From assembly GCA_965649295.1 (NCBI GenBank), contig CBFGKH010000010.1, forward strand, positions 1 through 64,000: a stretch of 64,000 nucleotides of DNA, read 5' to 3'. A program made the position numbers and the translations under genes. Below are positions 31,988-49,909 of the stretch, one piece after another; position 1 is the stretch's first letter; each line of letters begins with the position of its first letter. The stretch is from a candidate division WOR-3 bacterium. GTDB lineage: Bacteria > Hydrothermota > Tepidihabitantia > Tepidihabitantales > Tepidihabitantaceae. Under the pieces are notes generated by a model. The model was not told the origin of the DNA. It made no database searches and was given only the letters and a program-made list of their open reading frames with translations.

Positions 31988-32155
31988 AGGGAATTAGACC
32001 TAATCCGCGTCCTGCTGTCAAGAAAACGAGCAATATGACAACGGCTCTGTATCAGCGACACTCAAAGGATTACCGCCGCAGCCGCACTACGCCTACCTAG
32101 TCACCACCCTAGACTGCTGTTTAAGGTGAACCAAGACCACAAACAGTGGGCTGTC

Positions 32156-32776
32156 TCAGTAGCCCCACTGCTCAGTTAGGTAGGTTCTACGACGACACTC
32201 CGGGCAAAGGACACGCATTGTGTCCGATCGGTATGGCGCAAACGTGCCTCGGCGTCCAGTTAGCTCAGTGGTGTTGCCAAGTTCCTGCTGCGCTACCAGC
32301 AATAGTGTTGGGTTCGAATTGACAAGGTCACCAACACGCCGACCGATCCAGAGCAGCTGTTCACGAGTTGCGAATGGCTCGCCACAGACCTCGCAATAGA
32401 CAATGGTTTTCTCAACGGTCGTTTTCCAGTCGGCGCTGCGCTCAGTTCGCGCCGTGTCGAACTCGGTCGAATGTCGGATACCCTCACCGGTCGAGCAGTA
32501 ACGAACACACTGCCCGCAATAGATACAGCGGTCTGCGTGATGGCAGTTGCGCAGTACCATCTTCTCGCTATCAATCACAATCTCTCGTGCATTGGTCGGG
32601 CAGACCTGCACACAGGCTCCACAACCAATGCACTTATCCGGATTGAACTGGAGAATGCCCCGAAAAGCCGGATCGACTGAATCCACCGCTGCTGGGAACT
32701 TAGTTGTGAAAGGCCCGCGTACCACAGCGCTGACCGCCTCAATCAGCTCACGGACTTTGGGCAATGGTATCCGCAT
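32156..32776 (-). CDS. NuoI/HycF/MbhN-like 2[4Fe-4S] subunit
   Basis: FRG..F..DKCIGCGACVQVCP, CIYCGQCVRYC, extra CxxC pair. Confidence 0.9.
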   Translation of the reverse strand: MRIPLPKVRELIEAVSAVVRGPFTTKFPAAVDSVDPAFRGILQFNPDKCIGCGACVQVCPTNAREIVIDSEKMVLRNCHHADRCIYCGQCVRYCSTGEGIRHSTEFDTARTERSADWKTTVEKTIVYCEVCGEPFATREQLLWIGRRVGDLVNSNPTLLLVAQQELGNTTELTGRRGTFAPYRSDTMRVLCPECRRRTYLTEQWGY

Positions 32777-32779
32777 CTG

Positions 32780-33127
32780 CTATTCCTCGATAATACTCGG
32801 TCGCCCGCGGTCAGCGGTAAACTGATCCTTGACTGTATGCTTCCAGAGCTTGACACCAAAGATGAGCGAACCACGTGCCAACGCGTGAGCTGCAATTGGG
32901 ACCGTGATCAATACGAAGCCAGCGCAGAGCAATGCCTTAATGCCCAAAGCCGTGAACCCAGATAGCAAAAATACACCGAGCAGAATACCGCACGTACCCA
33001 AGGTGACACACTTGGTAGCCGCCTGCATCCGATTGTACAAATCTGGGAATCTGACCAGTCCGATACAGCCAAGCAGAGTGAAAGCGACACCAGTGGCGAT
33101 GGCTGCCCAGCCAAGTACGCTAGTCAT
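32780..33127 (-). CDS. mrpG: MrpG/MnhG (MbhC-like) subunit
   Basis: GLVRFPDLYNRMQAATKCVTLG, PIAAHALAR. Confidence 0.93.
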   Translation of the reverse strand: MTSVLGWAAIATGVAFTLLGCIGLVRFPDLYNRMQAATKCVTLGTCGILLGVFLLSGFTALGIKALLCAGFVLITVPIAAHALARGSLIFGVKLWKHTVKDQFTADRGRPSIIEE

Positions 33128-33374
33128 CGAGACTCCTTCCTTCCAAGTACTTGGCCAGCGCCAACGTACCCACAAAGGAGATAACCGCCAGTGCGATTGA
33201 AAGGTCCATCAAATAGGACAGCCGGTAACGCAAGGCCATCAAAGCAGTAATACTCGTGAAGATAACCGACATAATATCCACTGCTATCGCCCGATCTGGT
33301 ATGCTCGGCCCTTTGAGAGCACGGTAAAGGCAGAAGAACGCCCCGCCGACAAGAATCACGACCAGCGTTGTCAT
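33120..33374 (-). CDS. mrpF: MrpF/MnhF (MbhB-like) subunit
   Basis: GPSIPDRAIAVD, FVGTLALAKYL; SD GGAGG. Confidence 0.93.
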   Translation of the reverse strand: MTTLVVILVGGAFFCLYRALKGPSIPDRAIAVDIMSVIFTSITALMALRYRLSYLMDLSIALAVISFVGTLALAKYLEGRSLDD

Positions 33375-33385
33375 ACTCGCCTCCG

Positions 33386-33877
33386 TCAATCGAAAATCCG
33401 TTTGAGGAAGAACTCAAACGGCCCTATTATCCGTTTGGCCGCGGCATCCGGGTCGTCAGTCGTGACTTCGATCCAGTGGATGTACAAGGTGTCCTCTACC
33501 AGTTCGACTGACATAGTACCAGGTGTCAGCGTTATTGAGTTAGCTAAGAAGACACGGGCGATATCAGACTTCAACGATGTTTTTATTCGAACAATCCCTG
33601 GGCGGAGCTCAAGCCCAGGCGCAAGAACCCGAAGAGCGACGTCAACGTTAGCCCTGAGGCACTGCCACACAAAAACTGGAACGTAGACAAGTAACCAGAA
33701 CCATCTAACCGGGTTCAGCAATCTTGCAAGGCCAACTGGGAAAACGTTTCCAAAGAAGATAGCAGCGAGCACCGCCGCACCGAGTCCGAAGACTAACTCC
33801 TGCCAACCAGTACTCCAGACCAGCAACAACCACACTCCAAGACACAGAACTAGGAGTGCGACCCGGCGCGCAATCAC
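33386..33877 (-). CDS. mrpE: MrpE/MnhE (MbhA-like) subunit
   Basis: ANVDVA, PGIV, LANSITLTPGT, LYIHWI. Confidence 0.95.
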   Translation of the reverse strand: MIARRVALLVLCLGVWLLLVWSTGWQELVFGLGAAVLAAIFFGNVFPVGLARLLNPVRWFWLLVYVPVFVWQCLRANVDVALRVLAPGLELRPGIVRIKTSLKSDIARVFLANSITLTPGTMSVELVEDTLYIHWIEVTTDDPDAAAKRIIGPFEFFLKRIFD

Positions 33878-33880
33878 TTG

Positions 33881-35386
33881 CTAACCTCCCAGCACTCCAA
33901 CTGCGTAACGAGAACCATCAATGATGGCTTGGGCAGCTGGCCCGATTAGCCAGTCGAGCAGCGGCTTGAAGCCAACTCCGCCTACTAGCGAAAGCAGGAC
34001 CAAGAACAACATAGCAGCTACCATTAGCACTGGTGATTCCCTGGCCGGTGTTGGCTCGGTTCCGGGCCGACTGAAGAAAGCACGGTCGACGACAGTTACA
34101 AAATAGCCAAGCGTCACGACCGAAAACACTGCTGCAAAGACAGCAAGCCAGTACATTCGCGCATGGATTGCCGCGACGATGATGAACACCTTAGCAAAGA
34201 ATCCAACAAACGGTGGAACACCAGCAAGTGAAAAGGCTGACAATATGAATGACCACGCCGTGAATGGCATTGTTCGCTCAAGGCCACGCAGGCCGCCGAT
34301 ATCGCGGCAACCGGTAGCATCTTGTACCGAACCGGCCGACAGAAACAGCGCACCCTTGCCAAGGGCATGGGCCAGAACCAAAAACAATGCACCAACGACA
34401 CCCCAGTAGTTGCCGATCCCAAGTCCGATAACCACGTAACCAACCTGGCTGATGCTCGAGTACGCCAACAATCGCTTCTGGTCGCGCTGAGCGTATGCCA
34501 AGACACCTCCGACAACAACTGAAACCACGCCCAGCGCAACAAGCAGATCGAAGAACTGCGGTGCGCTTACGCGCGTCAGGCCGAAAACGTTGAACATCAC
34601 TCGGCTCAGCGCATAAACGCCCAGCACTTTAGAAAACACACCGGCTAGCATTGCCGCGACCGGCGTTGGTGCCGACGGATAGACATCAGGCAGCCAGGCA
34701 TGGAACGGAACCAGAGCCATCTTTATCGCAAAGCCGAAAACGAGTGTCGCGGCAATAAGCCAGAACAACGGCGTACGCCCAGCCGCATCAAGAGCCGTAG
34801 CGACCACTGCCATGTTCAATGCTGAGACCCGCGCATAGAGAAGCGCTATTGCTAACAAGATAGCCATCCCGCCGATCTCGCCGAGCACCATGTACTTGAA
34901 AGCAGCCTCCAACCCTTCTGCTTCGGTGCTGAAAGCGACGAGCGCGTAGGATGCAACCGCCGAAATCTCAACAAAGACGAAGAGATTGAACATGTCACCC
35001 GAGACCGCGACACCGTTCAAACCTGTCAGCATCAACATGAGCAGCGTATAGAACTTCCAGCGTCCTGTGTAACGATCAAGATAGCGCACGGCATAGACAG
35101 TCGCGGCCAATCCAACTAGCGTAACTACCAAAACGACTAGTGCAGTGAGGCTGTCGTACACCAAAGTTATACCAAGATGAGAAGGCCACCCACCCATTCG
35201 ATACACAACCGGAGCCTCACGGAGAATGACGTCGGATACACCCAAACCGGCAAGACCGACTAGCACCGCAGCGGCTGCACTGGCGACAACATCTGATCCT
35301 CGCGGCCACAACTTAGAAAGCAGGGGAATCAGAAACGCCACCGCCATCGGCAGCAACACCAAAGTTGGCACATAACGCGGATCCAT
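33881..35386 (-). CDS. mrpD: MrpD-like antiporter subunit (MbhH-like)
   Basis: DMFNLFVFVEI, EAAFKY, KMALVPFHAWLPD, LLAYSSISQVG. Confidence 0.9.
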   Translation of the reverse strand: MDPRYVPTLVLLPMAVAFLIPLLSKLWPRGSDVVASAAAAVLVGLAGLGVSDVILREAPVVYRMGGWPSHLGITLVYDSLTALVVLVVTLVGLAATVYAVRYLDRYTGRWKFYTLLMLMLTGLNGVAVSGDMFNLFVFVEISAVASYALVAFSTEAEGLEAAFKYMVLGEIGGMAILLAIALLYARVSALNMAVVATALDAAGRTPLFWLIAATLVFGFAIKMALVPFHAWLPDVYPSAPTPVAAMLAGVFSKVLGVYALSRVMFNVFGLTRVSAPQFFDLLVALGVVSVVVGGVLAYAQRDQKRLLAYSSISQVGYVVIGLGIGNYWGVVGALFLVLAHALGKGALFLSAGSVQDATGCRDIGGLRGLERTMPFTAWSFILSAFSLAGVPPFVGFFAKVFIIVAAIHARMYWLAVFAAVFSVVTLGYFVTVVDRAFFSRPGTEPTPARESPVLMVAAMLFLVLLSLVGGVGFKPLLDWLIGPAAQAIIDGSRYAVGVLGG

Positions 35387-35389
35387 CAG

Positions 35390-35728
35390 CTAACCCCGCA
35401 ACTTCCTAATCTCAGCGATATCGAATGTTCGATACTTCTCGTAGATGCGCATCGCTATGGCTAGCATCAATGCAGTGGTGGCGAGGCCAATGACAATTGA
35501 TGTTAGTACCAAGGCCTGCGGCAGGGGGTCAACGAAGTTACGAACTGCGCTCGACTGCGTGACGATAGGCGGCAGTGCGTCGCGTTTGAACCCCACAAGA
35601 GCAAAAAGGAGGTTCACAGCATACTCAATCAGTGTGAAACCGATGACAATCTTCAACAAGTTGCGTTTGGCAACAACTGTGTACAGCCCGATGAGAAACA
35701 TGAGCACACAAGCAATTAGTGGTACCAT
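35390..35728 (-). CDS. mrpC: MrpC/MnhC subunit
   Basis: NLLKIVIG, DPLPQALVLTSIVIG. Confidence 0.95.
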   Translation of the reverse strand: MVPLIACVLMFLIGLYTVVAKRNLLKIVIGFTLIEYAVNLLFALVGFKRDALPPIVTQSSAVRNFVDPLPQALVLTSIVIGLATTALMLAIAMRIYEKYRTFDIAEIRKLRG

Positions 35729-35730
35729 GG

Positions 35731-36171
35731 CTAGTCCTTCATGACGAAACGGGACGCTCCCAGTGCCAAGAAGATCGCAAGCAGACCCGCACCAACTTTG
35801 ATTCCGATCGCAATATTAGCTGGCATTATCAAACCACCGGATAGGAGCTGCAACGGCTGTCCGATACCGAATACCGGCTTGTTGGAGAAGAACTCGACGC
35901 CGACCATGGCCCCGGCTACTGCCAGACCTACGAACGCAAGCCCACCAACGCTCTCCAGCGCCGACGAGAAGGTGTAGGAACTCTTCTCGACCTTCTCGAC
36001 CGAACCAAAAGCAAGAGACTCCATTATGAACGCTGCCGCCACAAGCACACCTCCGGCGAATCCACCGCCCGGAGTCAAGTGACCATGCAAAATTATGTAG
36101 CAACCGTAAAGGAAGACGATACCAGCCAGCAGTCTGACGATGACTTGGACAATTGTCGACATCCCCCGCAT
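35731..36171 (-). CDS. mrpB: MrpB/MnhB subunit
   Basis: GHLTPGGGFAGG, IGIKVG. Confidence 0.93.
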   Translation of the reverse strand: MRGMSTIVQVIVRLLAGIVFLYGCYIILHGHLTPGGGFAGGVLVAAAFIMESLAFGSVEKVEKSSYTFSSALESVGGLAFVGLAVAGAMVGVEFFSNKPVFGIGQPLQLLSGGLIMPANIAIGIKVGAGLLAIFLALGASRFVMKD

Positions 36172-36172
36172 A

Positions 36173-36715
36173 CTAACTCCTCTCTCCAAGAATGCCGGCT
36201 CGCCGGACTACGGTTAGCACGCCCACGACCGCGGTGAAAAGGACTGTCGCCTCGCCAAGCGTGTCATAGCCACGGAAGTCTAGGATAATTGCCGCAACAA
36301 CATTCGCCGCGCCTGTCCGCTCGAGTCCAAGAGCAATATACTCTGTAGCAACTCGCAGCAGTGGACTTCCGAAAGCAGGTAACTCAGCGAAGGCCCTCGC
36401 AGCGAGGACAACTAGCAGGATTGCAAAAACGGCATAGGCAGCGGTGGCGCTCACCGACTCCCGACGGACGGAACTAGCCACAGTTGAATCGACGCTAGTC
36501 GAACGCAGAACAACAGCAGCAAAGAAAACAACCGTGAGGATTTCAACAAGGATCTGAACGATCGCCAAATCCGGCGCTTGTAGCAGTATGAACATAATCG
36601 CCACACTAAAACCGACGATCCCGAGCGCCACCGCTGCGGCAAGCAGGTCCCTAATCTCGATAGCAATGACTCCCGCAACCAGCATCACCGCGAGCAGCAC
36701 ATAGAGCTCAATCAT
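36173..36715 (-). CDS. MbhD-MbhE-like fusion (MrpA C-terminal region)
   Basis: APDLAI.Q..VE plus NVVAAIILDFRGYDTLGE. Confidence 0.9.
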   Translation of the reverse strand: MIELYVLLAVMLVAGVIAIEIRDLLAAAVALGIVGFSVAIMFILLQAPDLAIVQILVEILTVVFFAAVVLRSTSVDSTVASSVRRESVSATAAYAVFAILLVVLAARAFAELPAFGSPLLRVATEYIALGLERTGAANVVAAIILDFRGYDTLGEATVLFTAVVGVLTVVRRAGILGERS

Positions 36716-36718
36716 CCG

Positions 36719-38623
36719 CTACCTCGCCGCAAGCACAAGATATACTATCAATGCCCCCAAAAATACCCAACCGACGTACAACGGCAGAATACCAGTATGA
36801 ATCATAGCAAGTGCCCGCCCAGTAGAGCGAACAAGCCTGCCTGAGGCCGACACAATCCAGTTAATGACATCGTGAACTGCCTCACGTAGTACAAGTCCGG
36901 CTCCGCGACTGACCGCCACCACCCATGAATATAGATCAAAAGCGCCAGCTTCACCGAACCGCAGCAGCTCACTGAGCAATGGTAGCTGCTTCACCGAGGT
37001 ATAGAACGCCGTCCCCGTCACACGACTCTCCTCGTTGTCGGCGATTGATTCTCCACCAACGAACGTACGACCAACAATCGGCTTACGCGCTGTCCCCAGC
37101 AGGTAAAGGATCGCACCAACGCCTAAAGCTATCACCAGCAGCACTGTCGCCTGCCGTGGCTCCCACCATCCAGGCAACATCACGCTGAACGGCAGTCCTG
37201 GATAGATAAGTGCTGACAACGCCACTGGAAAAGCGAAAACACCAAACAGCACGCAAGTAGCAGCAAGCAGTACCGGCGGGAGCCACATTGCAAAGCTAAC
37301 TTCATGCGCCCGAGCCAAAGATGCCGGCCGCTGACCGAAAAAGATAGCGTGCAGCAACTTCAGAAACGACGCAAGCGTTAAAACACTGCCCAACATTGCC
37401 GCTACGAGGTAGAACGGGAAAACGCTGTTGCCTTCCCGCGCCAGCTCAATCACCCCCTGATAGACCATCCATTTGGAAACAAAACCATTTAGTGGTGGCA
37501 TACCCGATATTGCCAGCGCCGCGACTAGGAATGAAAGCATCGTTAGAGGCATCTTTACTGCCAGCCCGCCAAGTTGATCAATTTCATCTGTCTTCGCGAC
37601 ACTTTCAACCGAACCAGCAGCAAGAAACAACCCTGTCTTGTATATCGAGTTGTTGAGCATATGAAACAGCCCCCCAGCGATACCCACCGGGACACCGGTA
37701 CCGATCCCCAACACCATGTAGCCGACTTGAGACACAGCATGGAATGAGAGCAAGCGCATTACCCGTTTCTGAACTAAAGCCATCAGCACGGCACCAAGGA
37801 TCGTCACTGAACCAGTAACCATCAGCAGGGTGCGAACAGTCTGGTTGGTTGCAATGTCAAACAAACTAGTCGATATCCGAACAAGAAGGTATATACCAAG
37901 CAGCTTGTCAAGGGATGCTGGAATGAACGCCATCACCGTGGCGGGTGACGATTCTGATGCCTTGGGAATCCAAGAATGGAATGGCATCGAACCTGCCTTG
38001 GCAAGCGCCCCCACCGCAACCAGCAAATAGGCAAGGACTGTTAGCGGTTCAAGTAACGGCCAAGGAGCTATCGGCATTAAGTCAATCCAATCGTGAACAA
38101 TGAGCAATACCACACCCAACAGCATAGCGAAGTCAGATAACCCAATTACCACCAGTGCCTTTGCTGCTGCTTGGCTGGCACCAGCGCGTCCGCTCAGTAG
38201 CAATCCGTAGGTTACGGCAAGCAGAGAACCCCAGAAGAAGAGTAACACCGGCAGATTGGCCGAAGCCAATACTCCATTTGCGCAGGCAAGTGCCAACAAC
38301 ATGAAGAGGAAGTGATTGCTGGCCTTAGGCTCACCACGAAGGTACCGCAAAGAATAGGTAAGTATCAGCACAGCGAAGATAGCAACGAACAACAACACAA
38401 AGCCTGACAAAGCGTCGAGTCGGAACGACAGCGGCAGACCACTGAGCCAACCGATATCGTACACTACGATCGTAGTCCGCGTCTTGATGAAAAGCAGCAC
38501 CGCATAGAACAGCGATGCAACTGTCCCGATGAAGCAGAATTCGTTGCGCAGACGCCGCACAACGAAACCAGCCACCCCAGCAGCGGCCGGAACCAGTAAC
38601 AACATCAATATCGGGTGCGGCAT
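36719..38623 (-). CDS. NuoL/MrpA-like proton-translocating subunit
   Basis: KAGSMPFHSWIP, LLSFHAVSQVGY, ISGMPPLNGFVSKW, long C-terminal helix region. Confidence 0.9.
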   Translation of the reverse strand: MPHPILMLLLVPAAAGVAGFVVRRLRNEFCFIGTVASLFYAVLLFIKTRTTIVVYDIGWLSGLPLSFRLDALSGFVLLFVAIFAVLILTYSLRYLRGEPKASNHFLFMLLALACANGVLASANLPVLLFFWGSLLAVTYGLLLSGRAGASQAAAKALVVIGLSDFAMLLGVVLLIVHDWIDLMPIAPWPLLEPLTVLAYLLVAVGALAKAGSMPFHSWIPKASESSPATVMAFIPASLDKLLGIYLLVRISTSLFDIATNQTVRTLLMVTGSVTILGAVLMALVQKRVMRLLSFHAVSQVGYMVLGIGTGVPVGIAGGLFHMLNNSIYKTGLFLAAGSVESVAKTDEIDQLGGLAVKMPLTMLSFLVAALAISGMPPLNGFVSKWMVYQGVIELAREGNSVFPFYLVAAMLGSVLTLASFLKLLHAIFFGQRPASLARAHEVSFAMWLPPVLLAATCVLFGVFAFPVALSALIYPGLPFSVMLPGWWEPRQATVLLVIALGVGAILYLLGTARKPIVGRTFVGGESIADNEESRVTGTAFYTSVKQLPLLSELLRFGEAGAFDLYSWVVAVSRGAGLVLREAVHDVINWIVSASGRLVRSTGRALAMIHTGILPLYVGWVFLGALIVYLVLAAR

Positions 38624-38643
38624 AGACTATGACTCGCTTTCGT

Positions 38644-40026
38644 TCAAGACAAACCCCGCTCTAAGACCCCAGCCAGGAGTGGATAGAGTAACCCGAGACC
38701 TGTGGAAACAAGCGCTAGCAGCACAACGCAGAACGCCAATAGCCGATTCTCACGGGCTTCAATGCTAATAGTCGAAGGGCCGACAAAGACCCGGAATAGC
38801 CGCAACAAGTAAAGGACCGTCAGCACCGCTGCCGCGATTGCACCAATACCAACAAGAAGATTGATTCGCACGGCCGCGGCTAGCACATAAAACTTACCGA
38901 AGAATCCAAGCAATGGTGGAATACCAACTACTGATAGCATTAGGAAGGCAGTCGCGACGGCGGTTACAGGCATCTGTCGGCCCACGCCGTTGAGTTCGTG
39001 GATATCGCGCTTGTGCGTGCTGTGTTCGACAACCCCATAGGCCAGAAACAAACCAGCCTTGGCTATGGCATGTCCAACAAGATAAACCAAACCAGCCAGC
39101 AGCCCGAGGATTGAGGGCAAGGCGAAACCAATGAACACGTAACCGAGCTGACTAACAGTCGAGAACGCCAGGACGCGCTTGACGTCTCGCTCTCGAAGCG
39201 CACAGCCACCAGCAATCAAAGCACCACCGATCCCCAGACCGGCGACAAGCCAAGGCCACCACCAAGGCATCATAGCGCGGCTTTGGATGAATAGCTTGAC
39301 ATAAGCGACCAAACCCGCCTTGGCCACGACACCCGACAGCACCGCGCTCACTGGCGACGGCGCCGCCGAGTGTGCATCAGGTAACCAAACGTAAAGCGGT
39401 AGGCTAGCTGACTTTGTCACCATACCAACCAACAAGAGGATCGCAATCCAAGGCTCAATAGCGATACCGGCAAGCCCTGTCCAATCTAGCACACCGTAGT
39501 TGATATAGAGCGCCCCCAACCCAACAAGCATCAACGCCGAGCCAAAGAAGGTAATGAGCAAAGTCCGACTCGCAATTGCGATCTCGGCATCACGACGGTA
39601 GAAAGCAGTCAGACGCCAAGTCGAGATTCCCACAAGCTCCCAACAAAAGTACAAAACAATGAGGCTCCGCGAGAGACATAGTCCTACCATTCCCCCAAGC
39701 ATCAGCAGCAGAAAACCATAGTAATCATCAAGCGGGTCATAGGTACGGATGTACTCAAGCGAATAGACAGTGACAATCAACCAGATGCCAGCAAACACTG
39801 CGGCGAGCAACAGGCCAAGACTGTCAAGTCCGAAAAGTCGGCCGGCATCAACAGTTGCACCGTTTTGCCCGCCCAATGCCATGATGATGGCTACGATAAT
39901 GGTTGTGACTGCCGCCCCAACGACAGCTATCCACTGCAGCAATCGCCGACTCAGACGTCGCAGCACTAGCGCGGTTAGCCCCAGCAGCAACGGCGTCAGA
40001 ACAGCGGTAACCAGCAGCTGCCTCAC
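38644..40026 (-). CDS. Antiporter-like proton-translocating subunit (NuoL/M/HyfB family)
   Basis: WELVG, KSASLPLYVWLPDAH, LAFSTVSQLG, GIPPLLGFFGK. Confidence 0.9.
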   Translation of the reverse strand: MRQLLVTAVLTPLLLGLTALVLRRLSRRLLQWIAVVGAAVTTIIVAIIMALGGQNGATVDAGRLFGLDSLGLLLAAVFAGIWLIVTVYSLEYIRTYDPLDDYYGFLLLMLGGMVGLCLSRSLIVLYFCWELVGISTWRLTAFYRRDAEIAIASRTLLITFFGSALMLVGLGALYINYGVLDWTGLAGIAIEPWIAILLLVGMVTKSASLPLYVWLPDAHSAAPSPVSAVLSGVVAKAGLVAYVKLFIQSRAMMPWWWPWLVAGLGIGGALIAGGCALRERDVKRVLAFSTVSQLGYVFIGFALPSILGLLAGLVYLVGHAIAKAGLFLAYGVVEHSTHKRDIHELNGVGRQMPVTAVATAFLMLSVVGIPPLLGFFGKFYVLAAAVRINLLVGIGAIAAAVLTVLYLLRLFRVFVGPSTISIEARENRLLAFCVVLLALVSTGLGLLYPLLAGVLERGLS

Positions 40027-41210
40027 TTGCCGAACCTCTCCCTGATTGCCTCAGTCTTTGCCCAGGAAAGCTGCAAAAGCTCTCGCCCTGAGTAACGCAT
40101 CCGACCATCCTCAAACGCAGCCATTCGTTCAGTGCAACAATAGCACGGGTCAACGGCTGCCAAGGTCAAGGCAGCATCAGCTATTGAGCCACCACGAACC
40201 GCCACAACATTTGAGGCAATATTCATATAGCTCGGAGCTCGAACCTTGTGACGCAACGGTCGGTTGGTCCCATCTGAGCGAATATAATGAAATACCTCCC
40301 CACGTGGCGCCTCGGTTCTGCCAATACCCTCACCAGGGGGCACTTCGTCGATTCTCGTCTCGATTGGACCATCAGGTAGGTCTCTAAGACACGCTCGAAT
40401 GATCTTAATCGACTCGAATATCTCAAGGAAACGGACCCTGGCCTTGGCAAAAACATCGCCCTCATTGAGGACAATCACATTCCATGGCACCCGGTCATAG
40501 GCACAGTGAGGCTCGTCCCGGCGAACATCGATGTCGACACCGGACGGCCGCGCAGTTGGGCCAACAACTGAGTAGGCGACTGCCTGCTCCCGTGTCAACC
40601 GCCCCACACCCTCAAGCCGAGCCCGAATCACCGGATCATCGAGTACGGCATTTGTAAGCATCATCGTCTTCCTCTCGACAATTGCCAACGCCGCCTCAAT
40701 CTGCGGTATCTGTTCTGCTGTGATATCATGTCGAACACCGCCGGGCTTGTTCATGGCATAGTGGTTGCGGTTGCCGGTTATCGACTCGAAAACCTGCAGA
40801 ACATGCTCACGGTAACGCCAAGCCCACATCCAGACTGTGTTATAACCGATGAAATGACCGGCAAGACCCACCCAAAGTAAATGGGAGTGAATTCGTTCTA
40901 GTTCATGGACGATGGTCCGGAGGTAGTCTGCTCGTGGTGGCGGCTTGATACCAGCACAATCCTCGATTGCCAGTACGCAGGCAAGTGGGTGCGAATTCGA
41001 GCAGATACCACAGATTCGCTCAACCAGAAAAGGAATCTGGTCGTAAGTTAGTTCAGGGGAAATGAACTCGTGTCCTCGATGATTGTACCCCAGATGAATC
41101 TCCAAATCCACAACCTTCTCGCCCTCGACGATAAGCTTGAAAAACTCAGGTTCTTCCTGAAGCGGATGATAGGGACCAATCGGCACAATTCGTCGCCCGT
41201 TACCGCTCAT
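40023..41210 (-). CDS. Group 4 [NiFe]-hydrogenase large subunit
   Basis: GPYHP..EEP, HRGHE, L1 motif RICGICSNSH, EAPRGE, L2 motif DPCYCCTER with C-terminal extension. Confidence 0.95.
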   Translation of the reverse strand: MSGNGRRIVPIGPYHPLQEEPEFFKLIVEGEKVVDLEIHLGYNHRGHEFISPELTYDQIPFLVERICGICSNSHPLACVLAIEDCAGIKPPPRADYLRTIVHELERIHSHLLWVGLAGHFIGYNTVWMWAWRYREHVLQVFESITGNRNHYAMNKPGGVRHDITAEQIPQIEAALAIVERKTMMLTNAVLDDPVIRARLEGVGRLTREQAVAYSVVGPTARPSGVDIDVRRDEPHCAYDRVPWNVIVLNEGDVFAKARVRFLEIFESIKIIRACLRDLPDGPIETRIDEVPPGEGIGRTEAPRGEVFHYIRSDGTNRPLRHKVRAPSYMNIASNVVAVRGGSIADAALTLAAVDPCYCCTERMAAFEDGRMRYSGRELLQLSWAKTEAIRERFGK

Positions 41211-41652
41211 GAAACTCACCTCGACGTTCGTAGTCACGGCGCAAAGGACGTTGACTGGCATCCCAATCGGTATCAGAAGTGAGCAACGGTTTCAGACCAG
41301 GATGGCCGACAAAGTCAATGCCCAATAGCTCATGCATCTCACGTTCAATCCAATCGGCGGCGGGAAACCAGGTTGCCTGTGACTCCACTGATGGATCATC
41401 CTTGGGTAGTAGAACTTTAAGAGTATAGATTATGCCCGTATTATCGTCCGAGAAGTGATAAAGAACCTCGAAACCATCGCGGGTATCAATACCCGTGCAG
41501 ATCGATAATCGCATGCCACAGTCACAGTGCAAATATCGTGCGGCAGCAGTTACGCTTCCGCGCGGTATTCGGATATATAGACGGCGCGGGTTGTGTTCAA
41601 GTACATCAAGTTGGGGAACGAAACGACGGAGACCATCGAGGATCGAACTCAT
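41200..41652 (-). CDS. NuoC/MbhK-like subunit
   Basis: TGID, FEVLYHF, ADWIEREMHELLGIDFVGHP, PLRRD. Confidence 0.92.
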   Translation of the reverse strand: MSSILDGLRRFVPQLDVLEHNPRRLYIRIPRGSVTAAARYLHCDCGMRLSICTGIDTRDGFEVLYHFSDDNTGIIYTLKVLLPKDDPSVESQATWFPAADWIEREMHELLGIDFVGHPGLKPLLTSDTDWDASQRPLRRDYERRGEFHER

Positions 41653-42065
41653 AGTTTACTCAGTGCCTTGACCACTCCGAGAATCATCGCCTCCGGCTTG
41701 GGCGGGCAGCCGGGCACATAAGCGTGCACCGGAATGTGTCTATCATACGGGCCAACGACATTGTAGGAATTTCGGAAAATGTGGCAGTTGCAGGCACATG
41801 AACCGATTGCAATCACCAGGCACGGTTTGGCAGTCTGCTGATACACTTCAAGTACCCGAGGCAGTGACTTTCGGTTGACTACCCCAGTCACAAGCAGCGC
41901 ATCAGCGTGGCGCGGTGAACCCACCAGCACTACCCCAAATCGTTCCACGTCATAACGTGGAGTAAGCAGTTCAAGTATCTCAATGTCACAGTTGTTGCAG
42001 GGCGCCGCCGCCAAATGATACACCCAGGGTGACTTCTTAAGACCCCAGAGTTTCGCCCGGCTCAT
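41649..42065 (-). CDS. Group 4 hydrogenase small subunit (NuoB/MbhJ-like)
   Basis: CNNCDIE, SPRHAD, GSCA, YVPGCPPKPE. Confidence 0.95.
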   Translation of the reverse strand: MSRAKLWGLKKSPWVYHLAAAPCNNCDIEILELLTPRYDVERFGVVLVGSPRHADALLVTGVVNRKSLPRVLEVYQQTAKPCLVIAIGSCACNCHIFRNSYNVVGPYDRHIPVHAYVPGCPPKPEAMILGVVKALSKL

Positions 42066-42991
42066 AGTCCTACCCATGCCAAACCAACTGCAACTACTCC
42101 TAACAGGCCGAGTCCAAGCCAGAAAAACCTCAGCGCGTGATCAATCTTGAACCGAGGATTGGTGTTCTTTAACAGAATCATTAGCACGACAACAGCAAGC
42201 ACCTTGGGAATTGCCCACCAACTTGCAAGACCGCCCCACAGCAATGTTACCAGGAAGACCGGCAGTAGTAAGAACATCATCGCCTTTGTTAGTCGGAAGA
42301 CGGCTAGCGGCGCTCCCGAGTACTCAACCATCACGCCGGTCATGATCTCCTGCTCCGCCTCGGCGATATCAAACGGAACGTAGCCAAGTTTGGCCTGGAA
42401 GCAGATTAGCACGATTATAGTGGCGAGCAGACCGGAAATGGAGTACAGGAAAGGTCCAGCATCCATCTGCAGCAGCACAAGCTCGCCGAGCTTTATTGCA
42501 CCGCCACTCTTGATAATCGGCACCGCCAAGGCTAGCAAAAATGGTAGTTCGTAACCCAAGTACAGTGTCATTTCGCGAGAAGCACCAACCGCACCAATCG
42601 GATTGCGTGATGCTGAGGCCCCTATGATTGTCGCGAGCGGCGGCAGCGCGAGCAGGTAAACAAGCACCAGCACGTCGCCAACGAACGACCGGTTAGGAAC
42701 AAAACTTGCCGCGAAAAGCATCACTGCAATAACGCACATTGCTGCCAAACCAAGCAGTGGTGCAAACAGAAAAGTAGTTCGGGCAGCCCCAGTTGGTACA
42801 ATCGTTTCCTTGACAAGGAGCTTCAGCATGTCCGCAAAAGGCTGGTAGAAAGGCGGTCCCTGCCGCCACTGGACACGCGCCGAGACGAATCGGTCCACCC
42901 AAGTGAGCACAAGCCCAAGTGTAGCCGTGAACACAAAACCAGGAAAGACGAGAAAGGCGAAAACCAATCCCCAACCGGCAAGCCAGTTCAC
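42062..42991 (-). CDS. NuoH/HycD/MbhM-like membrane subunit
   Basis: ARVQWRQGPP..QPFAD..KL, GASRE, PFDIAEAEQE..G..EYSG, NPRFKID. Confidence 0.95.
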   Translation of the reverse strand: MNWLAGWGLVFAFLVFPGFVFTATLGLVLTWVDRFVSARVQWRQGPPFYQPFADMLKLLVKETIVPTGAARTTFLFAPLLGLAAMCVIAVMLFAASFVPNRSFVGDVLVLVYLLALPPLATIIGASASRNPIGAVGASREMTLYLGYELPFLLALAVPIIKSGGAIKLGELVLLQMDAGPFLYSISGLLATIIVLICFQAKLGYVPFDIAEAEQEIMTGVMVEYSGAPLAVFRLTKAMMFLLLPVFLVTLLWGGLASWWAIPKVLAVVVLMILLKNTNPRFKIDHALRFFWLGLGLLGVVAVGLAWVGL

Positions 42992-43455
42992 TGGCGCCTC
43001 CCGTGCGGGGAACGAGCAACAAAGCCAACCCCAACCCTGACCTCATCGGCCGGTTCTGCCTCGACAAACTGCAACGCTCCGGTGGGACAAGTAGTGGCGC
43101 AGCGCGGGCCTTCCGGACGATCACCACAAAGGCTGCACTTTTGGCTCACGCGCCGTAACAGTGTTGTCTCAATGGCACCGAATGGACAGGCAAGCGCACA
43201 TGAACGGCAGCCGATGCAATGGAAGCTTGAACGCAAAACAAGACCACTCTCTGGATCGCGCCTGATCGCCCCAGAAGGACAAGCCGCAAGACAAAGTGGT
43301 TCCTGACAATGACGGCAAGACATCGGCAGCAACACGGCTGAGGCAACTTCGGCGTGTCGAACCCGAGCTTCCCCCTTGAAGCGACTGCGACAAGCTGCTT
43401 CGCAAGCTCGACAGCCGATGCAGTAGTCCAGCCTCAGTTGAAGCCTTCTCGCCAT
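42988..43455 (-). CDS. HycB/CooF/DmsB-like 4[4Fe-4S] electron-transfer subunit
   Basis: CIGCRACEAAC, CRHCQEPLC..ACP, CIGCRSCALACP, KCSLC..PRC..CPTGAL. Confidence 0.92.
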   Translation of the reverse strand: MARRLQLRLDYCIGCRACEAACRSRFKGEARVRHAEVASAVLLPMSCRHCQEPLCLAACPSGAIRRDPESGLVLRSSFHCIGCRSCALACPFGAIETTLLRRVSQKCSLCGDRPEGPRCATTCPTGALQFVEAEPADEVRVGVGFVARSPHGRRQ

Positions 43456-45065
43456 CAGTAAGCTGCCTCCAGTGGGTAGCGACGGGAAGATGTTGTCGGC
43501 CGAATTTCTACTGCGGCTGGAGGTATTGCTGGAGATCCAGCCGCATCAGCAACAATTCCGAACAACGCTCGGTTCTCACGTGCGTTGACACCGACTACTG
43601 CCGTACCGGCTGGTACGGCCGGCGTGCGCCGTAGCCGCAGCGTTCGCTCACTTGTACTAGTTCTGAGAACAACCTCATCAACGGTCTGCCCCAACTCATT
43701 GTCGGGACCCACCGTAACGTCTTGTTCGTCAACGTAAAGACCACCAAGACCGATGGCCCGCTTCTCACCAACGAGCCGCAGTGAAGAAGGATTCTGCCAG
43801 CGCGCCAGTTCAGTTTGAGCTAGGTCGGCAATAGCTTCGACTCCGGCTGGAGGGACCGTTGACTCGCCCAGCGGAGCGATGGGGGCGAACTCTTCTAGAA
43901 TCTGGCCCACCCGACGACTACCACTAAACGGTGCAGCCAGTGGCCATCGTCGCACCGCTCCCCAATAGCCAACTCCGGTTGATTCCTTTTCCAGCTCACT
44001 CGGAACCGGTAGAACTAATCCACGTAATGGCCGGATCGGTCGGAAAATGCTAGTAACCACGATATGCTCAATCTGAGCAGTCTCTGGAAAAAGCTCGGGA
44101 TAGCTCAAGGGATGGAGCGAGCCAAACCAGAACAGCGTTCGCAACGTATTGCTGGCCGCTGCCTGACGCAACTGCTCAAACGTATTCGGCCCCAGCCGCA
44201 CGCGTCCTTCTGCAAAACCGGTAAACGTTGCTTTCGCCTGCACAGCCAAAAGCTGAGAAGCGTAGCTGTGCAAAGTTGGAAGAGCGGTTCTACCGAGACC
44301 GGCAGCACTACCGACAAAGGCCAATCCGGTCTTCAGCATGTTTGCCGCCGCCTGTAGTTGTCCAAGTTCGACACCGGCAGCCGCGGCAAGTTGTTCAGCC
44401 CCAAGACCGATCTTTGCACCCAACAGAGCAGCGATTCCGAGCAAAGCAAACGGTTCAGCCCCGGGCCGAACTAGAATACTCAAGTGAGCAAGAGTATCCT
44501 GGGCTGTTCGCAGCGAGTCGATAACGATCAAGCGGTTTTGGCGATTAGCGTAGCGCCATTCCACAATCATTCCGCCGGCAACTGGCGACGTCGCAAAAAC
44601 GTCGCCAACCAGCAAAATCGTCTTGGCGCCGCGAACATCGTCCAGACCAGCCTCGCGCACTCCAGCAACTTTCTGGCCGAACAGGTTGCCAGGTTCGATA
44701 TAGCCACACACAAGCAGCTGCGCCCTGACAGCTCGAGCGAATCCCCAAACCAAGTCAAGCTCGTCGCCAGTTAGCCCACGGCTGTAGGCAACGGCAAGAC
44801 GGCCGTCCTGACCAGCAGCCAAAGCCCTACGACAGTACTCCAACGCCTGCCCCCAGCTCACTTCCCGACCATCGAGCAATGGATAGCCGAGTCTTCGCGG
44901 ATGGTCGAGCACAATGCTGGCACTGTTCCCACGCGGACACAGCCGACCGCGATTGACCACCGCGTCAGACGGATACTCCATTCGGTACTGATAGCCATCG
45001 AAAACAACCTCGGACTCGCACCCGTTCAAACAAAACGGGCAGGTAGTCCTGTTCCGCGTCAGCAT
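43455..45065 (-). CDS. Molybdopterin-oxidoreductase-like (FdhA/NuoG C-terminal-like) Fe-S protein, short and divergent
   Basis: N-terminal TTCPFCLNGC..VNRGRLCPRG..RLGYPL..SW..AL; about 536 aa. Confidence 0.8.
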   Translation of the reverse strand: MLTRNRTTCPFCLNGCESEVVFDGYQYRMEYPSDAVVNRGRLCPRGNSASIVLDHPRRLGYPLLDGREVSWGQALEYCRRALAAGQDGRLAVAYSRGLTGDELDLVWGFARAVRAQLLVCGYIEPGNLFGQKVAGVREAGLDDVRGAKTILLVGDVFATSPVAGGMIVEWRYANRQNRLIVIDSLRTAQDTLAHLSILVRPGAEPFALLGIAALLGAKIGLGAEQLAAAAGVELGQLQAAANMLKTGLAFVGSAAGLGRTALPTLHSYASQLLAVQAKATFTGFAEGRVRLGPNTFEQLRQAAASNTLRTLFWFGSLHPLSYPELFPETAQIEHIVVTSIFRPIRPLRGLVLPVPSELEKESTGVGYWGAVRRWPLAAPFSGSRRVGQILEEFAPIAPLGESTVPPAGVEAIADLAQTELARWQNPSSLRLVGEKRAIGLGGLYVDEQDVTVGPDNELGQTVDEVVLRTSTSERTLRLRRTPAVPAGTAVVGVNARENRALFGIVADAAGSPAIPPAAVEIRPTTSSRRYPLEAAY

Positions 45066-45877
45066 CACCAGGGATCCTCGATATCCTTGACCTGTTCCCA
45101 CGTGAGAACTGGGCCATCCTTGCAGGCGAGATAAGGACCCACACGACAATGACGGCACTGACCAACACCACAAGACATGTTCTTTTCCATTGAAAGATAG
45201 ATGTTGTTACCGGCGAAACCAGCCTCAACCAAGCGCATAGTAACGAACTTCATCATAATCGGTGGCCCACAAACGACTGCCACGGCCGTCTTCGTGTCGC
45301 AAGGGACTTCATCCATGAGACAGGTAACCACACCTACCTTGCGCATCCAGCGTTCGTCGCGTACGTCGACCGATAGGTCGATATCAACCTTGGGTAGCTT
45401 CTCCCACTCCTTCAACTGTGTCTTATACACGATATCATCAGGTGTCCGAGCTCCGTACCGAAGGTAGATCCGTTTGTACTTATCAATCTCGTGAACCAGG
45501 GCAAGAAAAAGCGCCCGCAATGGGGCCAGTCCAACACCGCCCCCGACAATATAGACCTCACGGCCCTCGAACTTCTCAAGTGGATAGCGCTTTCCATAAG
45601 GACCGCGTACGCCAACTTGAGCACCTGGCCCCAACTCAAACAACGCACCTGTCGCCCTACCGACCTTCATAATCGTCATCTCAAAGGTATCGCGGACAAA
45701 GTGCGATGACGACGGTGTGAACGGTGCTTCGCCGAAGCCGGGAATGGTGAGTTCAACGAATTGACCGGCAAGGAATGGTATTTCCTTCTCCGGCTTCAGG
45801 ACAAAAGTTCGGATGTTTGGCGTTTCCTGTACCACGCTCAAAATAGTCGCTGGCACTGGTTGGTAAGGATTGATCAT
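45065..45877 (-). CDS. FAD/NAD(P)-binding [2Fe-2S] subunit (HydG/AsrB/FlxA-like)
   Basis: GQF, GEAPF, RGPYG, GGGVGLAPLR, CGPPIMM, MSCGVGQCRHC..CKDGPV. Confidence 0.92.
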   Translation of the reverse strand: MINPYQPVPATILSVVQETPNIRTFVLKPEKEIPFLAGQFVELTIPGFGEAPFTPSSSHFVRDTFEMTIMKVGRATGALFELGPGAQVGVRGPYGKRYPLEKFEGREVYIVGGGVGLAPLRALFLALVHEIDKYKRIYLRYGARTPDDIVYKTQLKEWEKLPKVDIDLSVDVRDERWMRKVGVVTCLMDEVPCDTKTAVAVVCGPPIMMKFVTMRLVEAGFAGNNIYLSMEKNMSCGVGQCRHCRVGPYLACKDGPVLTWEQVKDIEDPW

Positions 45878-46899
45878 ACCTCTGCCAACACCTTCCGAAT
45901 ATCAATACCGCCCATGCAAGCCCGGAAACACCGTCCACAACCAGAACAGGCATAGAAGCCGTGGTCGTTCTTGAACTGATTCCACTTGCAGTCGAAGCGA
46001 TTGGCGAAACGTTTAAGGAACTTACCCCGGTCGTTAGCGCCACCACCAACTCGGGCATAAGCCGCCTCATAGCATGCATCCCAGACCCTGATGCGCTCAA
46101 AGCCTGAATCGCTGGCTCGATCATAGAGCAAGAAACAGTAGCAGGTCGGACAGCCAAAAAGGCAGCCGTAGCACTCAACGCAGTGCTGGGCATGTCGTTC
46201 CCAAAAAGCGGCGTCAAGGAGACGCTTCTCTATCGCTCGCGACAAATCGCTGTTCCAGGGCTGGGGATTGATCTGTTGCAGTTGTTGCTCAGCGCGCCGG
46301 CGCTGTTCAGCGCGTTGTTCTAATTCAGCTTCGGTCGCCGGACGGAACAAACCCGGAGCTACCTTCACGAGTCGCTCTCCCACCTCGGTCAATGTCTCAA
46401 TCAACAACCGGTCTACCAACGCAGTAACGACAGCATCAGCGCCTTCGGTCGAGTAGGGCTTATTGCCAAGAAGATTACAAAAACAACTGGGCTCGGGTTT
46501 CGGACAATCGGCGACGACCTTCACTGTTCCCGCAATTCGAGCCAAGTAGAACGGATCCGCATACTCGCCCTGACCAAGTATCCGTTCATGCACGCGGAGC
46601 GGCACAAGGTCGCAGTTCTTCATGCCAAAAACAACCTGATGCGCGGCAACCGGCTCTGGCGCCTTTGGCATCCCAGCCACAACTGCACGCGGGCTGAAGA
46701 GAAACGACTTTACTGGTTCGGCAGCCCGAATACCGCCAAGGGCCCGAAGCAACTCAGTGCCGTCAACAATCGCTCCGGCGGTATACCTCTGCCAGTGAAC
46801 TTGAGAATCAACTATCGTGGGGACGTATACCGTAGCGCCGTCAAGCAGGCTCGCAAGCCACGTTTCCATCTTGGAAGCTTCGATTGCGAACCTGCTCAC
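45874..46899 (-). CDS. [4Fe-4S] subunit (HydB/AsrA/FlxB-like)
   Basis: K.FLFSP, CD, CFC, CVECYGCLFGCPTCYCF, R.WDAC, CSGCGRCFRAC; GTG start 8 nt after the -10 box. Confidence 0.9.
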   Translation of the reverse strand: MSRFAIEASKMETWLASLLDGATVYVPTIVDSQVHWQRYTAGAIVDGTELLRALGGIRAAEPVKSFLFSPRAVVAGMPKAPEPVAAHQVVFGMKNCDLVPLRVHERILGQGEYADPFYLARIAGTVKVVADCPKPEPSCFCNLLGNKPYSTEGADAVVTALVDRLLIETLTEVGERLVKVAPGLFRPATEAELEQRAEQRRRAEQQLQQINPQPWNSDLSRAIEKRLLDAAFWERHAQHCVECYGCLFGCPTCYCFLLYDRASDSGFERIRVWDACYEAAYARVGGGANDRGKFLKRFANRFDCKWNQFKNDHGFYACSGCGRCFRACMGGIDIRKVLAEV

Positions 46900-46907
46900 G
46901 GATAGCA

Positions 46908-46935
46908 AAAATAGAGACCCTTCTTCATTTGTCAA
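46908..46935 (-). promoter_or_regulatory. Sigma70-type promoter of the hydrogenase operon
   Basis: TTGACA-N16-TATTTT on the minus strand. Confidence 0.65.
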
Positions 46936-47987: not shown

Positions 47988-48022
47988 GTGTCTGAAGGGA
48001 TGCTATTTGATTGGAGGAGCTG

Positions 48023-49897: not shown

Positions 49898-49909
49898 GGG
49901 CGTCGCACT

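What the first reader, a model, noticed from the sequence alone, without database searches (positions are those of the whole stretch)
32156..46935. 18-gene group-4 [NiFe]-hydrogenase/Mrp complex with a co-transcribed NAD(P)-flavin and Mo-oxidoreductase-like input arm
Seen: one promoter followed by 18 abutting or overlapping genes. The order is HydB/AsrA-like Fe-S, HydG/AsrB-like FAD/NAD(P), FdhA/NuoG-like Fe-S, HycB-like, NuoH, small subunit, NuoC, large subunit (both Ni-binding CxxC motifs intact), two antiporter-like subunits, MbhDE, MrpB/C/D/E/F/G, NuoI. Known: Pyrococcus Mbh has one antiporter-like subunit and uses ferredoxin; HydBG normally serves soluble group 3b enzymes. Inference: a complex-I-like H2/NAD(P)(H) ion-translocating enzyme with three antiporter-like subunits, in which HydBG plus a NuoG-like scaffold replace NuoEFG. 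This is the best candidate here for an uncharacterised system.
Basis: partly seen in the sequence, partly recalled or inferred. Interest (0 to 1): 0.8.

Follow-up and report, generated by a model that had tools for sequence, protein, structure and literature searches.

The report
Three-pump Hun membrane hydrogenase operon
This is a real 18-gene operon for a membrane-bound nickel-iron hydrogenase of the already named but apparently never purified "Hun" family, in a version with a third ion-channel subunit and a matching longer connecting helix, and it likely links hydrogen to NADH rather than to ferredoxin.

Summary
The 18 genes are real, intact and in the stated order. The design is published: 16 genes match the Hun supercomplex (Glass et al., bioRxiv 10.1101/536078) one for one, with its CGIC/CYCC motif. 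That paper already notes the optional molybdopterin-type gene. This scan found the same operon before on other DNA. No biochemistry turned up in my searches.

Added here:
(1) The third antiporter-like subunit likely sits in the membrane arm. The lateral-helix segment of HunH is 47 residues in 20 of 20 three-subunit loci, 21 in 48 of 48 two-subunit loci and absent in both one-subunit loci.
(2) HunB keeps FAD and nucleotide motifs with an NAD(H)-type Asp in 55 of 55 relatives, against the published ferredoxin reading.
(3) The Mo-enzyme-like subunit is a cofactor-less FdhF relic; MoeA was not found in this genome or in 28 same-class genomes.

Best mechanism (inferred): a reversible, ion-coupled H2:NAD+ oxidoreductase, likely venting NADH as H2 at the cost of the ion gradient. 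Direction is untested. Verdict: new variant of a known kind.

The parts
46908..46935 (-). Predicted sigma-70-type promoter (-35, 16 nt, -10); the start codon follows 8 nt later, so the mRNA is likely leaderless
   Evidence: same motif in 16 of 17 relic-bearing loci, control 5 of 800
45874..46899 (-). hunA: HydB/AsrA/FlxB-like Fe-S subunit; likely start GTG 46899
   Evidence: 15 of 16 Cys invariant in 53 relatives; start
45065..45877 (-). hunB: HydG/AsrB/FlxA-like FAD, [2Fe-2S] and nucleotide-binding subunit; Asp171 points to NAD(H)
   Evidence: motifs and Asp171 in 55 of 55 relatives
43455..45065 (-). Cofactor-less FdhF-type molybdopterin-fold relic (536 aa) with one [4Fe-4S] motif; Sec/Cys-His site replaced by Glu124-Pro125
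   Evidence: no MoeA or MoaC in the genome
42988..43455 (-). hunC: HycB/CooF-like subunit with four [4Fe-4S] motifs
42062..42991 (-). hunD: NuoH/MbhM/HycD-like membrane anchor with the acidic loop
   Evidence: acidic loop pattern in 69 of 71 relatives
41649..42065 (-). hunE: hydrogenase small subunit
   Evidence: four cluster Cys in 73 of 73
41200..41652 (-). hunF: NuoC/MbhK-like subunit
40023..41210 (-). hunG: group-4 [NiFe] large subunit, L1 CGIC, L2 CYCC, Glu20 equivalent to MbhL Glu21, C-terminal extension
38644..40026 (-). Extra (third) antiporter-like subunit, absent from the 16-gene Hun; TM5 Glu and TM7, TM8, TM12 Lys all present in this copy
36719..38623 (-). hunH: MbsH'/MrpA/NuoL-like antiporter-like subunit with lateral helix; TM5 Glu replaced by Gly132, Asp-Lys in TM8
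36800..36940 (-). Lateral-helix segment of HunH (residues 562-608): 47 residues, against 21 in two-subunit forms
   Evidence: predicted continuous helix 564-608, pLDDT about 55-72
36173..36715 (-). hunI: MbhD-MbhE fusion (MrpA C-terminal part)
35731..36171 (-). hunJ: MrpB-like
35390..35728 (-). hunK: MrpC/NuoK-like
33881..35386 (-). hunL: MrpD/MbhH-like antiporter-like subunit, charged axis complete
33386..33877 (-). hunM: MrpE-like
33120..33374 (-). hunN: MrpF-like
32780..33127 (-). hunO: MrpG-like
32156..32776 (-). hunP: HycF/NuoI-like 2x[4Fe-4S] subunit with the HycF-type C-terminal metal motif
   Evidence: motif in 42 of 52 relatives
32148..32165 (-). Weak terminator-like hairpin over the hunP stop codon
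   Evidence: consensus match only

Best explanation
The operon encodes an 18-subunit Hun-family membrane [NiFe] hydrogenase that likely interconverts H2 and NAD(H), is predicted to couple this to H+/Na+ movement through three antiporter-like subunits and an Mrp module, and would most likely vent fermentative NADH as H2 at the cost of the ion gradient. Shown by sequence: the subunit set, the intact Ni-Fe site, intact FAD, [2Fe-2S] and nucleotide motifs in HunB, loss of the Mo ligand in the relic, and lateral-helix length tracking the number of antiporter-like genes. Inferred path: NADH, FAD and [2Fe-2S] (HunB), Fe-S clusters of HunA, HunC, HunP, HunE, then Ni-Fe (HunG). The relic is likely a structural cap on HunC at FdhF's place, off the main wire. 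Inferred membrane arm, by analogy with MBS: HunD docks on HunH, whose long helix clamps the extra subunit and HunL, followed by the Mrp Na+ module. Inferred energetics: NADH to H2 costs +3 to +26 kJ/mol at 1e-4 to 1 atm H2, about one to two ions flowing in. Rnf and the Na+-type V-ATPase would supply the gradient. At high H2 the same enzyme would run back and export ions. This needs a net coupling polarity opposite to MBH, the weakest step.
For: Hun match: gene order, taxa and motifs. Maturation genes HypD, HypE, HypF and a HycI-type protease are in the genome. HunB's best solved relative is sulfhydrogenase gamma (E 2.5e-46). At the site where that NADPH enzyme has Thr-Arg, HunB has Asp, like NAD-linked PyrK and NfnA, in 55 of 55 relatives; the Asp rule is recalled. 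The genome's two Flx-type paralogue pairs carry the same Asp. HunB is kept at 63-66% identity in 4 of 4 genomes tested from two families where the operon is broken up. Relic: Cys/Sec ligand in 0 of 19 relatives; present in 28 of 28 same-class genomes, MoeA in 0 of 28. HunC's first cluster motif is intact in 21 of 21 loci with the relic but in 20 of 39 without, so the main wire need not pass there. Helix: 47 residues in 20 of 20, 21 in 48 of 48, 0 in 2 of 2, and consistent in 7 of 7 further loci. Rnf and Na+-type rotor. Energetics.
Against: No assay, transcript or complex model. In MBH and Ech, H2 evolution exports ions (PMC7684303 passages; PMC9356269 listing). If Hun keeps that polarity, NADH to H2 is excluded: at most -10 kJ/mol at 1e-5 atm against 10-17 kJ per ion. 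Published pump numbers scale with driving force (12, 41, 81 kJ/mol for 1, 2, 4 protons), which suits a low-potential donor better than NADH. The genome already has an NADH-dependent [FeFe] hydrogenase with a NuoF-like partner, so it may not need another NADH valve. HunH lacks the TM5 Glu in 70 of 70 close relatives, which could uncouple the arm. The extra subunit evolves fast (median 35% identity) and keeps the TM8 Lys in only 3 of 21 relatives. The NAD/NADP call rests on one residue and a gapped pairwise alignment.
Confidence: 0.45

Rival explanations
1. Ferredoxin-driven H2-evolving ion pump, as Glass et al. proposed: HunABC take electrons from ferredoxin, and H2 evolution exports H+ and Na+ for the Na+-ATPase.
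For: Ferredoxin to H2 yields -17 to -45 kJ/mol, enough for one to three ions, with the known MBH polarity. HydDB lists group 4g as putatively ferredoxin-coupled. The rotor is Na+-type.
Against: HunB's nucleotide-binding and FAD motifs are near-invariant in 55 of 55 relatives, which a pure ferredoxin dock would not need. The argument rests on AsrAB carrying ferredoxin electrons, whereas AsrABC and FlxA are NADH-linked (recalled).
Confidence: 0.2
2. Ion-driven H2 scavenger: with MBH-like polarity, ion influx drives oxidation of trace H2 to make NADH, as Ech and Eha do for ferredoxin.
For: Needs no change of polarity. H2 to NAD+ is uphill below about 1e-4 atm. The family occurs in predicted acetogens (10.1101/765248 passage).
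Against: Many hosts are described as H2-producing fermenters. This genome has an Mvh-type uptake hydrogenase and Hdr. At higher H2 the reaction would waste the gradient.
Confidence: 0.15
3. Two-input confurcating pump: NADH enters by HunAB and ferredoxin by the relic's cluster or HunC, both reduce protons, and ions are exported.
For: The relic keeps its [4Fe-4S] motif in 19 of 19 aligned relatives with HunC's first cluster intact in 21 of 21. Averaging both donors makes H2 evolution downhill at low H2 (inference).
Against: No bifurcating-type flavin subunit (HdrA, NfnB or NuoF type) among the 18 genes. One cluster Cys is lost in 2 distant relics, and 39 of 59 callable loci have no relic.
Confidence: 0.1
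4. Loosely coupled modules: a membrane-tethered H2:NAD+ oxidoreductase working near equilibrium, and an Mrp antiporter that shares the operon without energy coupling.
For: HunH lacks the TM5 Glu in 70 of 70 close relatives. HycC of FHL also has a broken Glu/Lys pair (PMC9474812 passages). Two loci have one antiporter-like gene and no lateral helix.
Against: The NuoH acidic loop (69 of 71), the TM7, TM8 and TM12 lysines of HunH (70 of 70) and an exact helix length are conserved. Two distant HunH keep the TM5 Glu.
Confidence: 0.1

Closest known systems
Hun Ni-Fe hydrogenase-Na+/H+ antiporter supercomplex, hunA-P (Glass et al., bioRxiv 10.1101/536078; section 8 read in full, figures and Table S5 not visible)
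   Same: All 16 hun genes in the same order; CGIC-CYCC motif; optional molybdopterin-domain gene between hunB and hunC; relatives in Omnitrophota, Elusimicrobiota and Bacteroidota.
   Different: A third antiporter-like gene between hunG and hunH and a 26-residue longer lateral helix, neither mentioned in the text I read. Their model uses ferredoxin; the sequence evidence here points to NAD(H).
'Enigmatic' group-4 hydrogenase of Saganbacteria RX5A (PMC6349859; passages of main text and Supplementary Note 5) and 'Mbh-Mrp-oxidoreductase type' of Elusimicrobia (10.1101/765248; passages)
   Same: [quoted passage not shown]
   Different: The RX5A note lists fewer membrane subunits. Neither set of passages gives a donor or shows the Mo subunit to be cofactor-less.
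Pyrococcus furiosus MBH (6CFW) and MBS (6U8Y)
   Same: The large subunit is closest to MbhL among solved chains (E 2e-79). Mrp Na+ module present. HunH has the MbsH'-type TM15, loop, lateral helix, TM16 tail.
   Different: MBH has one and MBS two antiporter-like subunits, and both use ferredoxin with no flavin arm. MBS has no Ni-Fe site. MbsH' keeps TM5 Glu128; this HunH does not.
E. coli formate hydrogenlyase FHL-1 (7Z0T); FHL-2/Hyf
   Same: Soluble arm of FdhF-fold protein, HycB, HycF with C-terminal metal motif, small and large subunits. Hyf has three antiporter-like subunits (recalled).
   Different: FdhF is an active Mo-Sec enzyme; here the ligand and Moco genes are missing. FHL has no HydBG-type diaphorase and no MrpB/E/F/G.
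Sulfhydrogenase I beta/gamma (9NEZ), AsrAB, FlxAB
   Same: HunA and HunB are homologues (E 3e-29 and 2.5e-46), below the curated cut-offs of those families.
   Different: Those serve soluble group 3b hydrogenase, sulfite reductase or Hdr. HunB has Asp where SHI gamma has Thr-Arg.

Membership tests
Hun supercomplex | Sixteen genes hunA-P in conserved order | tested here: met
   All 16 present in order, with two insertions; the 16-gene order recurs in relatives
Hun supercomplex | HunG L1/L2 motifs CGIC and CYCC | tested here: met
   Window and 80 of 80 loci. The count is biased because one of six search patterns held this motif; 2 more distant relatives have CYSC
Hun supercomplex | Optional 4Fe-4S molybdopterin-domain gene between hunB and hunC | tested here: met
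   43455-45065
Hun supercomplex | Placement in a tree with the reference HunG (RXG63129) and HydDB class 4g | not testable with these tools
   No HydDB and no reference sequence at hand; the tree holds only my 80 loci, which include the phyla that the paper names
Group 4 [NiFe] hydrogenase (not Ehr or MBS) | Four Ni-Fe cysteines, MbhL Glu21 equivalent, four-Cys small subunit, maturation genes | tested here: met
MBH (group 4d) | One antiporter-like subunit and no flavoprotein input arm | tested here: not met
   Three antiporter-like genes and HunAB present
Formate hydrogenlyase / Fdh-Mrp-Mbh (groups 4a, 4b) | Active Mo/W-bisPGD formate dehydrogenase with Sec/Cys-His | tested here: not met
   Glu124-Pro125 at that site; Cys or Sec in 0 of 19 relatives; MoeA and MoaC not found in a genome rated 100% complete
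Complex I N-module (NuoEFG) | FMN-binding NuoF and a NuoG with N-terminal [2Fe-2S] and [4Fe-4S] domains | tested here: not met
   No NuoF family hit; the relic has only the N7-like cluster motif; TM-score 0.75-0.78 to the top seven FDH hits against 0.64-0.70 to NuoG chains
Any ion-translocating hydrogenase | Redox-coupled ion translocation and identity of the electron carrier | not testable with these tools
   Needs biochemistry

The most novel reading that the evidence does not exclude
Hun is a hydrogen-run counterpart of complex I: a membrane H2:NAD+ oxidoreductase whose net coupling polarity is opposite to MBH, so that H2 oxidation charges the membrane and the gradient can force NADH to H2. 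Nature has built it with one, two or three antiporter-like subunits on the same redox core, set by a lateral-helix ruler of 0, 21 or 47 residues. This window carries the three-subunit form.
Probability: 0.25. Interest if true: 0.75.

Novelty: new variant of a known kind. Interest (0 to 1): 0.38.

Why it matters
The operon itself is not a discovery: it is named, widespread (large subunit in 53 of 121 sampled genomes of this phylum) and was seen before by this scan. Two points matter to a bioenergeticist. First, I found no biochemical account of an NAD(H)-linked, ion-coupled hydrogenase of this family, and the published ferredoxin model ignores an intact diaphorase site. If NAD(H) is the partner, thermodynamics forces either a reversed coupling polarity or a gradient-driven H2 scavenger. 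Second, Yu et al. ask whether adding or removing a pump changes the energy conserved (PMC7684303). The Hun family offers that series naturally: one, two or three antiporter-like genes on one core, with a helix that lengthens by exactly 26 residues for the third. A cultured host of the family (Kosmotoga, named) makes the basic assays feasible.

Tried and rejected
1. Co-occurrence of the relic and the third antiporter-like gene as a functional link: rejected. Counts were 18 both, 39 neither, 2 relic only, of 59 callable among 80 loci, but all relic-bearing loci fall in one clade (SH-aLRT 98, quick tree). Two further loci have the relic with two antiporter-like genes.

2. Membrane-free 'soluble Hun' in G044, G015, G049 and L056: not supported. 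These loci lack NuoH and Mrp neighbours, but 4 of 4 genomes tested hold antiporter-like ORFs of matching sizes and a close HunB elsewhere. I read them as scattered operons; orthology was not tested.

3. Active Mo or W enzyme: rejected. PF00384 also missed the relic itself, so that search is insensitive here.

5. Expression: no RNA holder was listed; this is no evidence either way.

6. A first regex measure of helix length gave spurious values and was replaced by an alignment-column measure. A first NuoH pattern was mistyped (0 of 71) and corrected. A first count of HunC cysteines was unreliable and redone.

7. Literature: ten searches showed no biochemical study of Hun and no mention of helix length in this family. 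Most subscription papers, all figures and bioRxiv supplements were out of reach, so Fig. 3A or Table S5 of Glass et al. may already show the third antiporter-like gene.
Full report
OBSERVATION. Eighteen intact ORFs run on the minus strand from 46899 to 32156. Pfam and NCBIfam give, in order: HydB/AsrA-like, HydG/AsrB-like, an Fdh-alpha-like protein with a weak N-terminal match, HycB-like, NuoH, small subunit, NuoC, large subunit, two antiporter-like subunits, MbhDE, MrpB, C, D, E, F, G, and HycF/NuoI. With refined starts, 9 of 17 junctions overlap and 8 have gaps of 1-20 nt. GC content is 53-57%, like the flanks. The promoter-like site at 46935-46908 is not significant alone (13 found, 9.7 expected). 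It is positionally conserved in 16 of 17 relic-bearing loci and 7 of 23 others, against 5 of 800 control windows, with a start codon 7-13 nt after the -10 box in those 16. The first gene therefore likely starts at GTG 46899 on a leaderless mRNA.

IDENTITY. An earlier scan note pointed to the Hun complex, and I checked this against the paper (bioRxiv 10.1101/536078, passages, section 8 in full; figures not visible). It describes a 16-subunit operon: HunAB similar to AsrAB, HunEFGP as the Ni-Fe core, HunG of group 4g with CGIC-CYCC, HunDHILK and HunIJKLMNO as membrane modules, and in some genomes a molybdopterin-domain gene between hunB and hunC. Removing genes 3 and 9 from the window gives exactly that order. 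Of 525 GTDB stretches that encode a relative of the large subunit, the best 80 were kept. They include Omnitrophota, Elusimicrobiota and Bacteroidota with the 16-gene order, and Ca. Stahlbacteria records with the 18-gene order. hunABC lie upstream in 48 of 50 loci with enough flank. CYCC occurs in 80 of 80, a count biased by the search pattern; two more distant relatives have CYSC. The same design is described as 'enigmatic' in Saganbacteria (PMC6349859, passages of the main text and supplement file 11) and as 'Mbh-Mrp-oxidoreductase type', function unknown, in Elusimicrobia (10.1101/765248, passages). In a sample of 121 genomes of this phylum the large subunit is found in 53, and in all 28 others of the same class.

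HYDROGENASE CORE. The large subunit is closest to MbhL and HycE among solved chains. The equivalent of MbhL Glu21, named as key for proton reduction (PMC7684303 passage), is kept in 80 of 80, and the small subunit's four cysteines in 73 of 73. A 31-49 residue tail follows L2 in 81 of 81 sequences. The genome has HypD, an adjacent HypE-like ORF (read by eye), HypF and a HycI-family protease. This is a true hydrogenase by sequence, not an Ehr or MBS type.

INPUT ARM. HunB matches sulfhydrogenase gamma (E 2.5e-46), then PyrK and NfnA. Its flavin motif, glycine loop and four [2Fe-2S] cysteines are invariant or nearly so in 55 relatives, and Asp171 is invariant. In the FNR family Asp at this site marks NAD(H) and Ser/Thr-Arg marks NADP(H) (recalled, from cytochrome b5 reductase and FNR). 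The NADPH-dependent gamma subunit has Thr-Arg there; PyrK and NfnA have Asp. Gene 3 folds with pLDDT 88.7 into the DMSO-reductase-family fold, with TM-scores of 0.75-0.78 to the top seven formate dehydrogenase hits and 0.64-0.70 to NuoG chains. Its [4Fe-4S] cysteines are invariant in 19 of 19 aligned relatives, but FdhF's Sec-His aligns with Glu124-Pro125 and no relative has Cys there. MoeA and MoaC were not found in this genome, rated 100% complete. Across the 28 same-class genomes the relic is found in 28 and MoeA in none. HunC keeps its first cluster motif in 21 of 21 loci with the relic and 20 of 39 without by a strict pattern (22 of 39 counting altered spacing); four have lost a second cluster too. 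That cluster is the one nearest the Mo subunit in related enzymes (recalled). Two distant relics have lost one cluster cysteine. HunP carries the HycF-type metal motif in 42 of 52 relatives (motif described in PMC9474812 passages). So the arm looks like a formate hydrogenlyase arm whose dehydrogenase has decayed into a scaffold, with a diaphorase entering downstream. Where HunA docks is not shown.

MEMBRANE ARM. HunL has a complete charged axis (TM5 Glu, TM7 and TM12 Lys in 54 of 54; TM8 Lys in 53 of 54). The extra subunit keeps TM5 Glu, TM7 Lys and TM12 Lys in 21 of 21; TM8 Lys is present in the window but in only 3 of 21 relatives, 17 having Glu-Asn there. HunH lacks TM5 Glu in 70 of 70 and has Asp-Lys in TM8 in 69 of 70; MbsH' has Glu128, and two distant HunH do too. 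The three subunit types form separate groups in a quick tree of 64 selected sequences. The clearest new result is the lateral helix. Between two conserved anchors in the HunH tail there are 47 residues in the window and in 20 of 20 loci with the extra gene, including one Omnitrophota locus from another part of the large-subunit tree; 21 residues in 48 of the 50 loci without it; and none in the other 2, which have a single antiporter-like gene. Seven further loci agree: 47, 47 with the extra gene, and 22, 22, 21, 21, 21 without. AlphaFold predicts one continuous helix at 564-608, at moderate confidence. Twenty-six residues are about 39 angstrom of helix. [quoted passage not shown] The third subunit is therefore likely an in-line part of the arm. 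Most three-subunit loci are kin, so the counts overstate independence.

GENOME CONTEXT. RnfCDGEAB lies in the window at 920-6037. The V-type rotor subunit matches the Enterococcus Na+ rotor and keeps its Thr, Gln, Tyr, Gln and Glu ligands (ligand list recalled). The genome also has HdrCBA with a Flx-type set, a second Flx-type set, an Mvh-type hydrogenase, and an NADH-dependent [FeFe] hydrogenase with a NuoF-like partner ('Flx' is my label from gene order).

MECHANISM. With potentials of -280 to -320 mV for NADH, -500 mV for ferredoxin and -414 mV for H2 (PMC9304861, abstract start; -320 recalled), NADH to H2 costs +18 to +26 kJ/mol at 1 atm and yields at most -10 kJ/mol at 1e-5 atm. One ion is worth 10-17 kJ/mol, and ferredoxin to H2 yields -17 to -45 kJ/mol. 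An NAD(H)-linked Hun therefore cannot export ions while making H2. Either ion influx drives NADH to H2 and H2 oxidation exports ions (my choice, 0.45, since many hosts are fermenters and this is the only energy-conserving use of the couple), or influx drives uptake of trace H2 (0.15). The ferredoxin pump of Glass et al. (0.2) fits the energetics but not the invariant nucleotide site. Confurcation (0.1) lacks a known bifurcating flavin. Loose coupling (0.1) fits the missing TM5 Glu. Family membership is near certain (about 0.95) and NAD(H) linkage likely (about 0.7); direction is the weak step.

NOVELTY. The system is named, and eight earlier scan reports describe it on other DNA. Ten literature searches showed no biochemical study and no note of the helix series; figures and bioRxiv supplements could not be seen. 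Other papers seen only as passages or listings: PMC8542988, PMC5037454, PMC9585477 (nothing relevant). I class it as a new variant of a known kind, interest 0.38.

Noticed in passing
window 43-294: CRISPR-like array: four copies of a 36-nt repeat with 34-38 nt spacers, close to the contig start.
   Followed up: partly
window 920-6037 (+): Complete rnfCDGEAB operon about 26 kb from the hun operon.
   Followed up: partly
window 47108-47145 (+) and about 32021-31987 (-): The divergent metallo-beta-lactamase-fold gene has a promoter-like site ending 9 nt before its ATG, and a TTGACA lies about 34 nt upstream of the 168-aa orphan gene. Leaderless transcripts may be common in this lineage.
   Followed up: partly
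L005 11161-12765; L006 10584-12263: Hun loci with the relic but a single, shortened antiporter-like gene: no lateral helix, no hunL between hunK and hunM.
   Followed up: partly
L118 (G044:C33), L119-L122 (G015, G049), L056: Hun gene set broken into pieces: relic-hunC-hunE, hunF-hunG-hunP and hunAB at separate places, with antiporter-like ORFs of matching sizes elsewhere.
   Followed up: partly
L114, L115 (G031, G096): 17-gene form: relic present with one cluster Cys lost, two antiporter-like genes, and HunH retaining the TM5 Glu.
   Followed up: partly
L036, L047, L052, L064: HunC homologues that have lost two of their four [4Fe-4S] motifs, which limits where HunA can feed electrons.
   Followed up: partly
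L126 (G000:C2), L127 (G000:C3): Two further HydB/HydG-like pairs in Flx-type order, one behind hdrCBA and one without hdr genes nearby.
   Followed up: partly
window 48011-52042 (+): Acetyl-CoA hydrolase/transferase fused to a GNAT domain, followed by an ADP-forming acyl-CoA synthetase-like gene.
   Followed up: no
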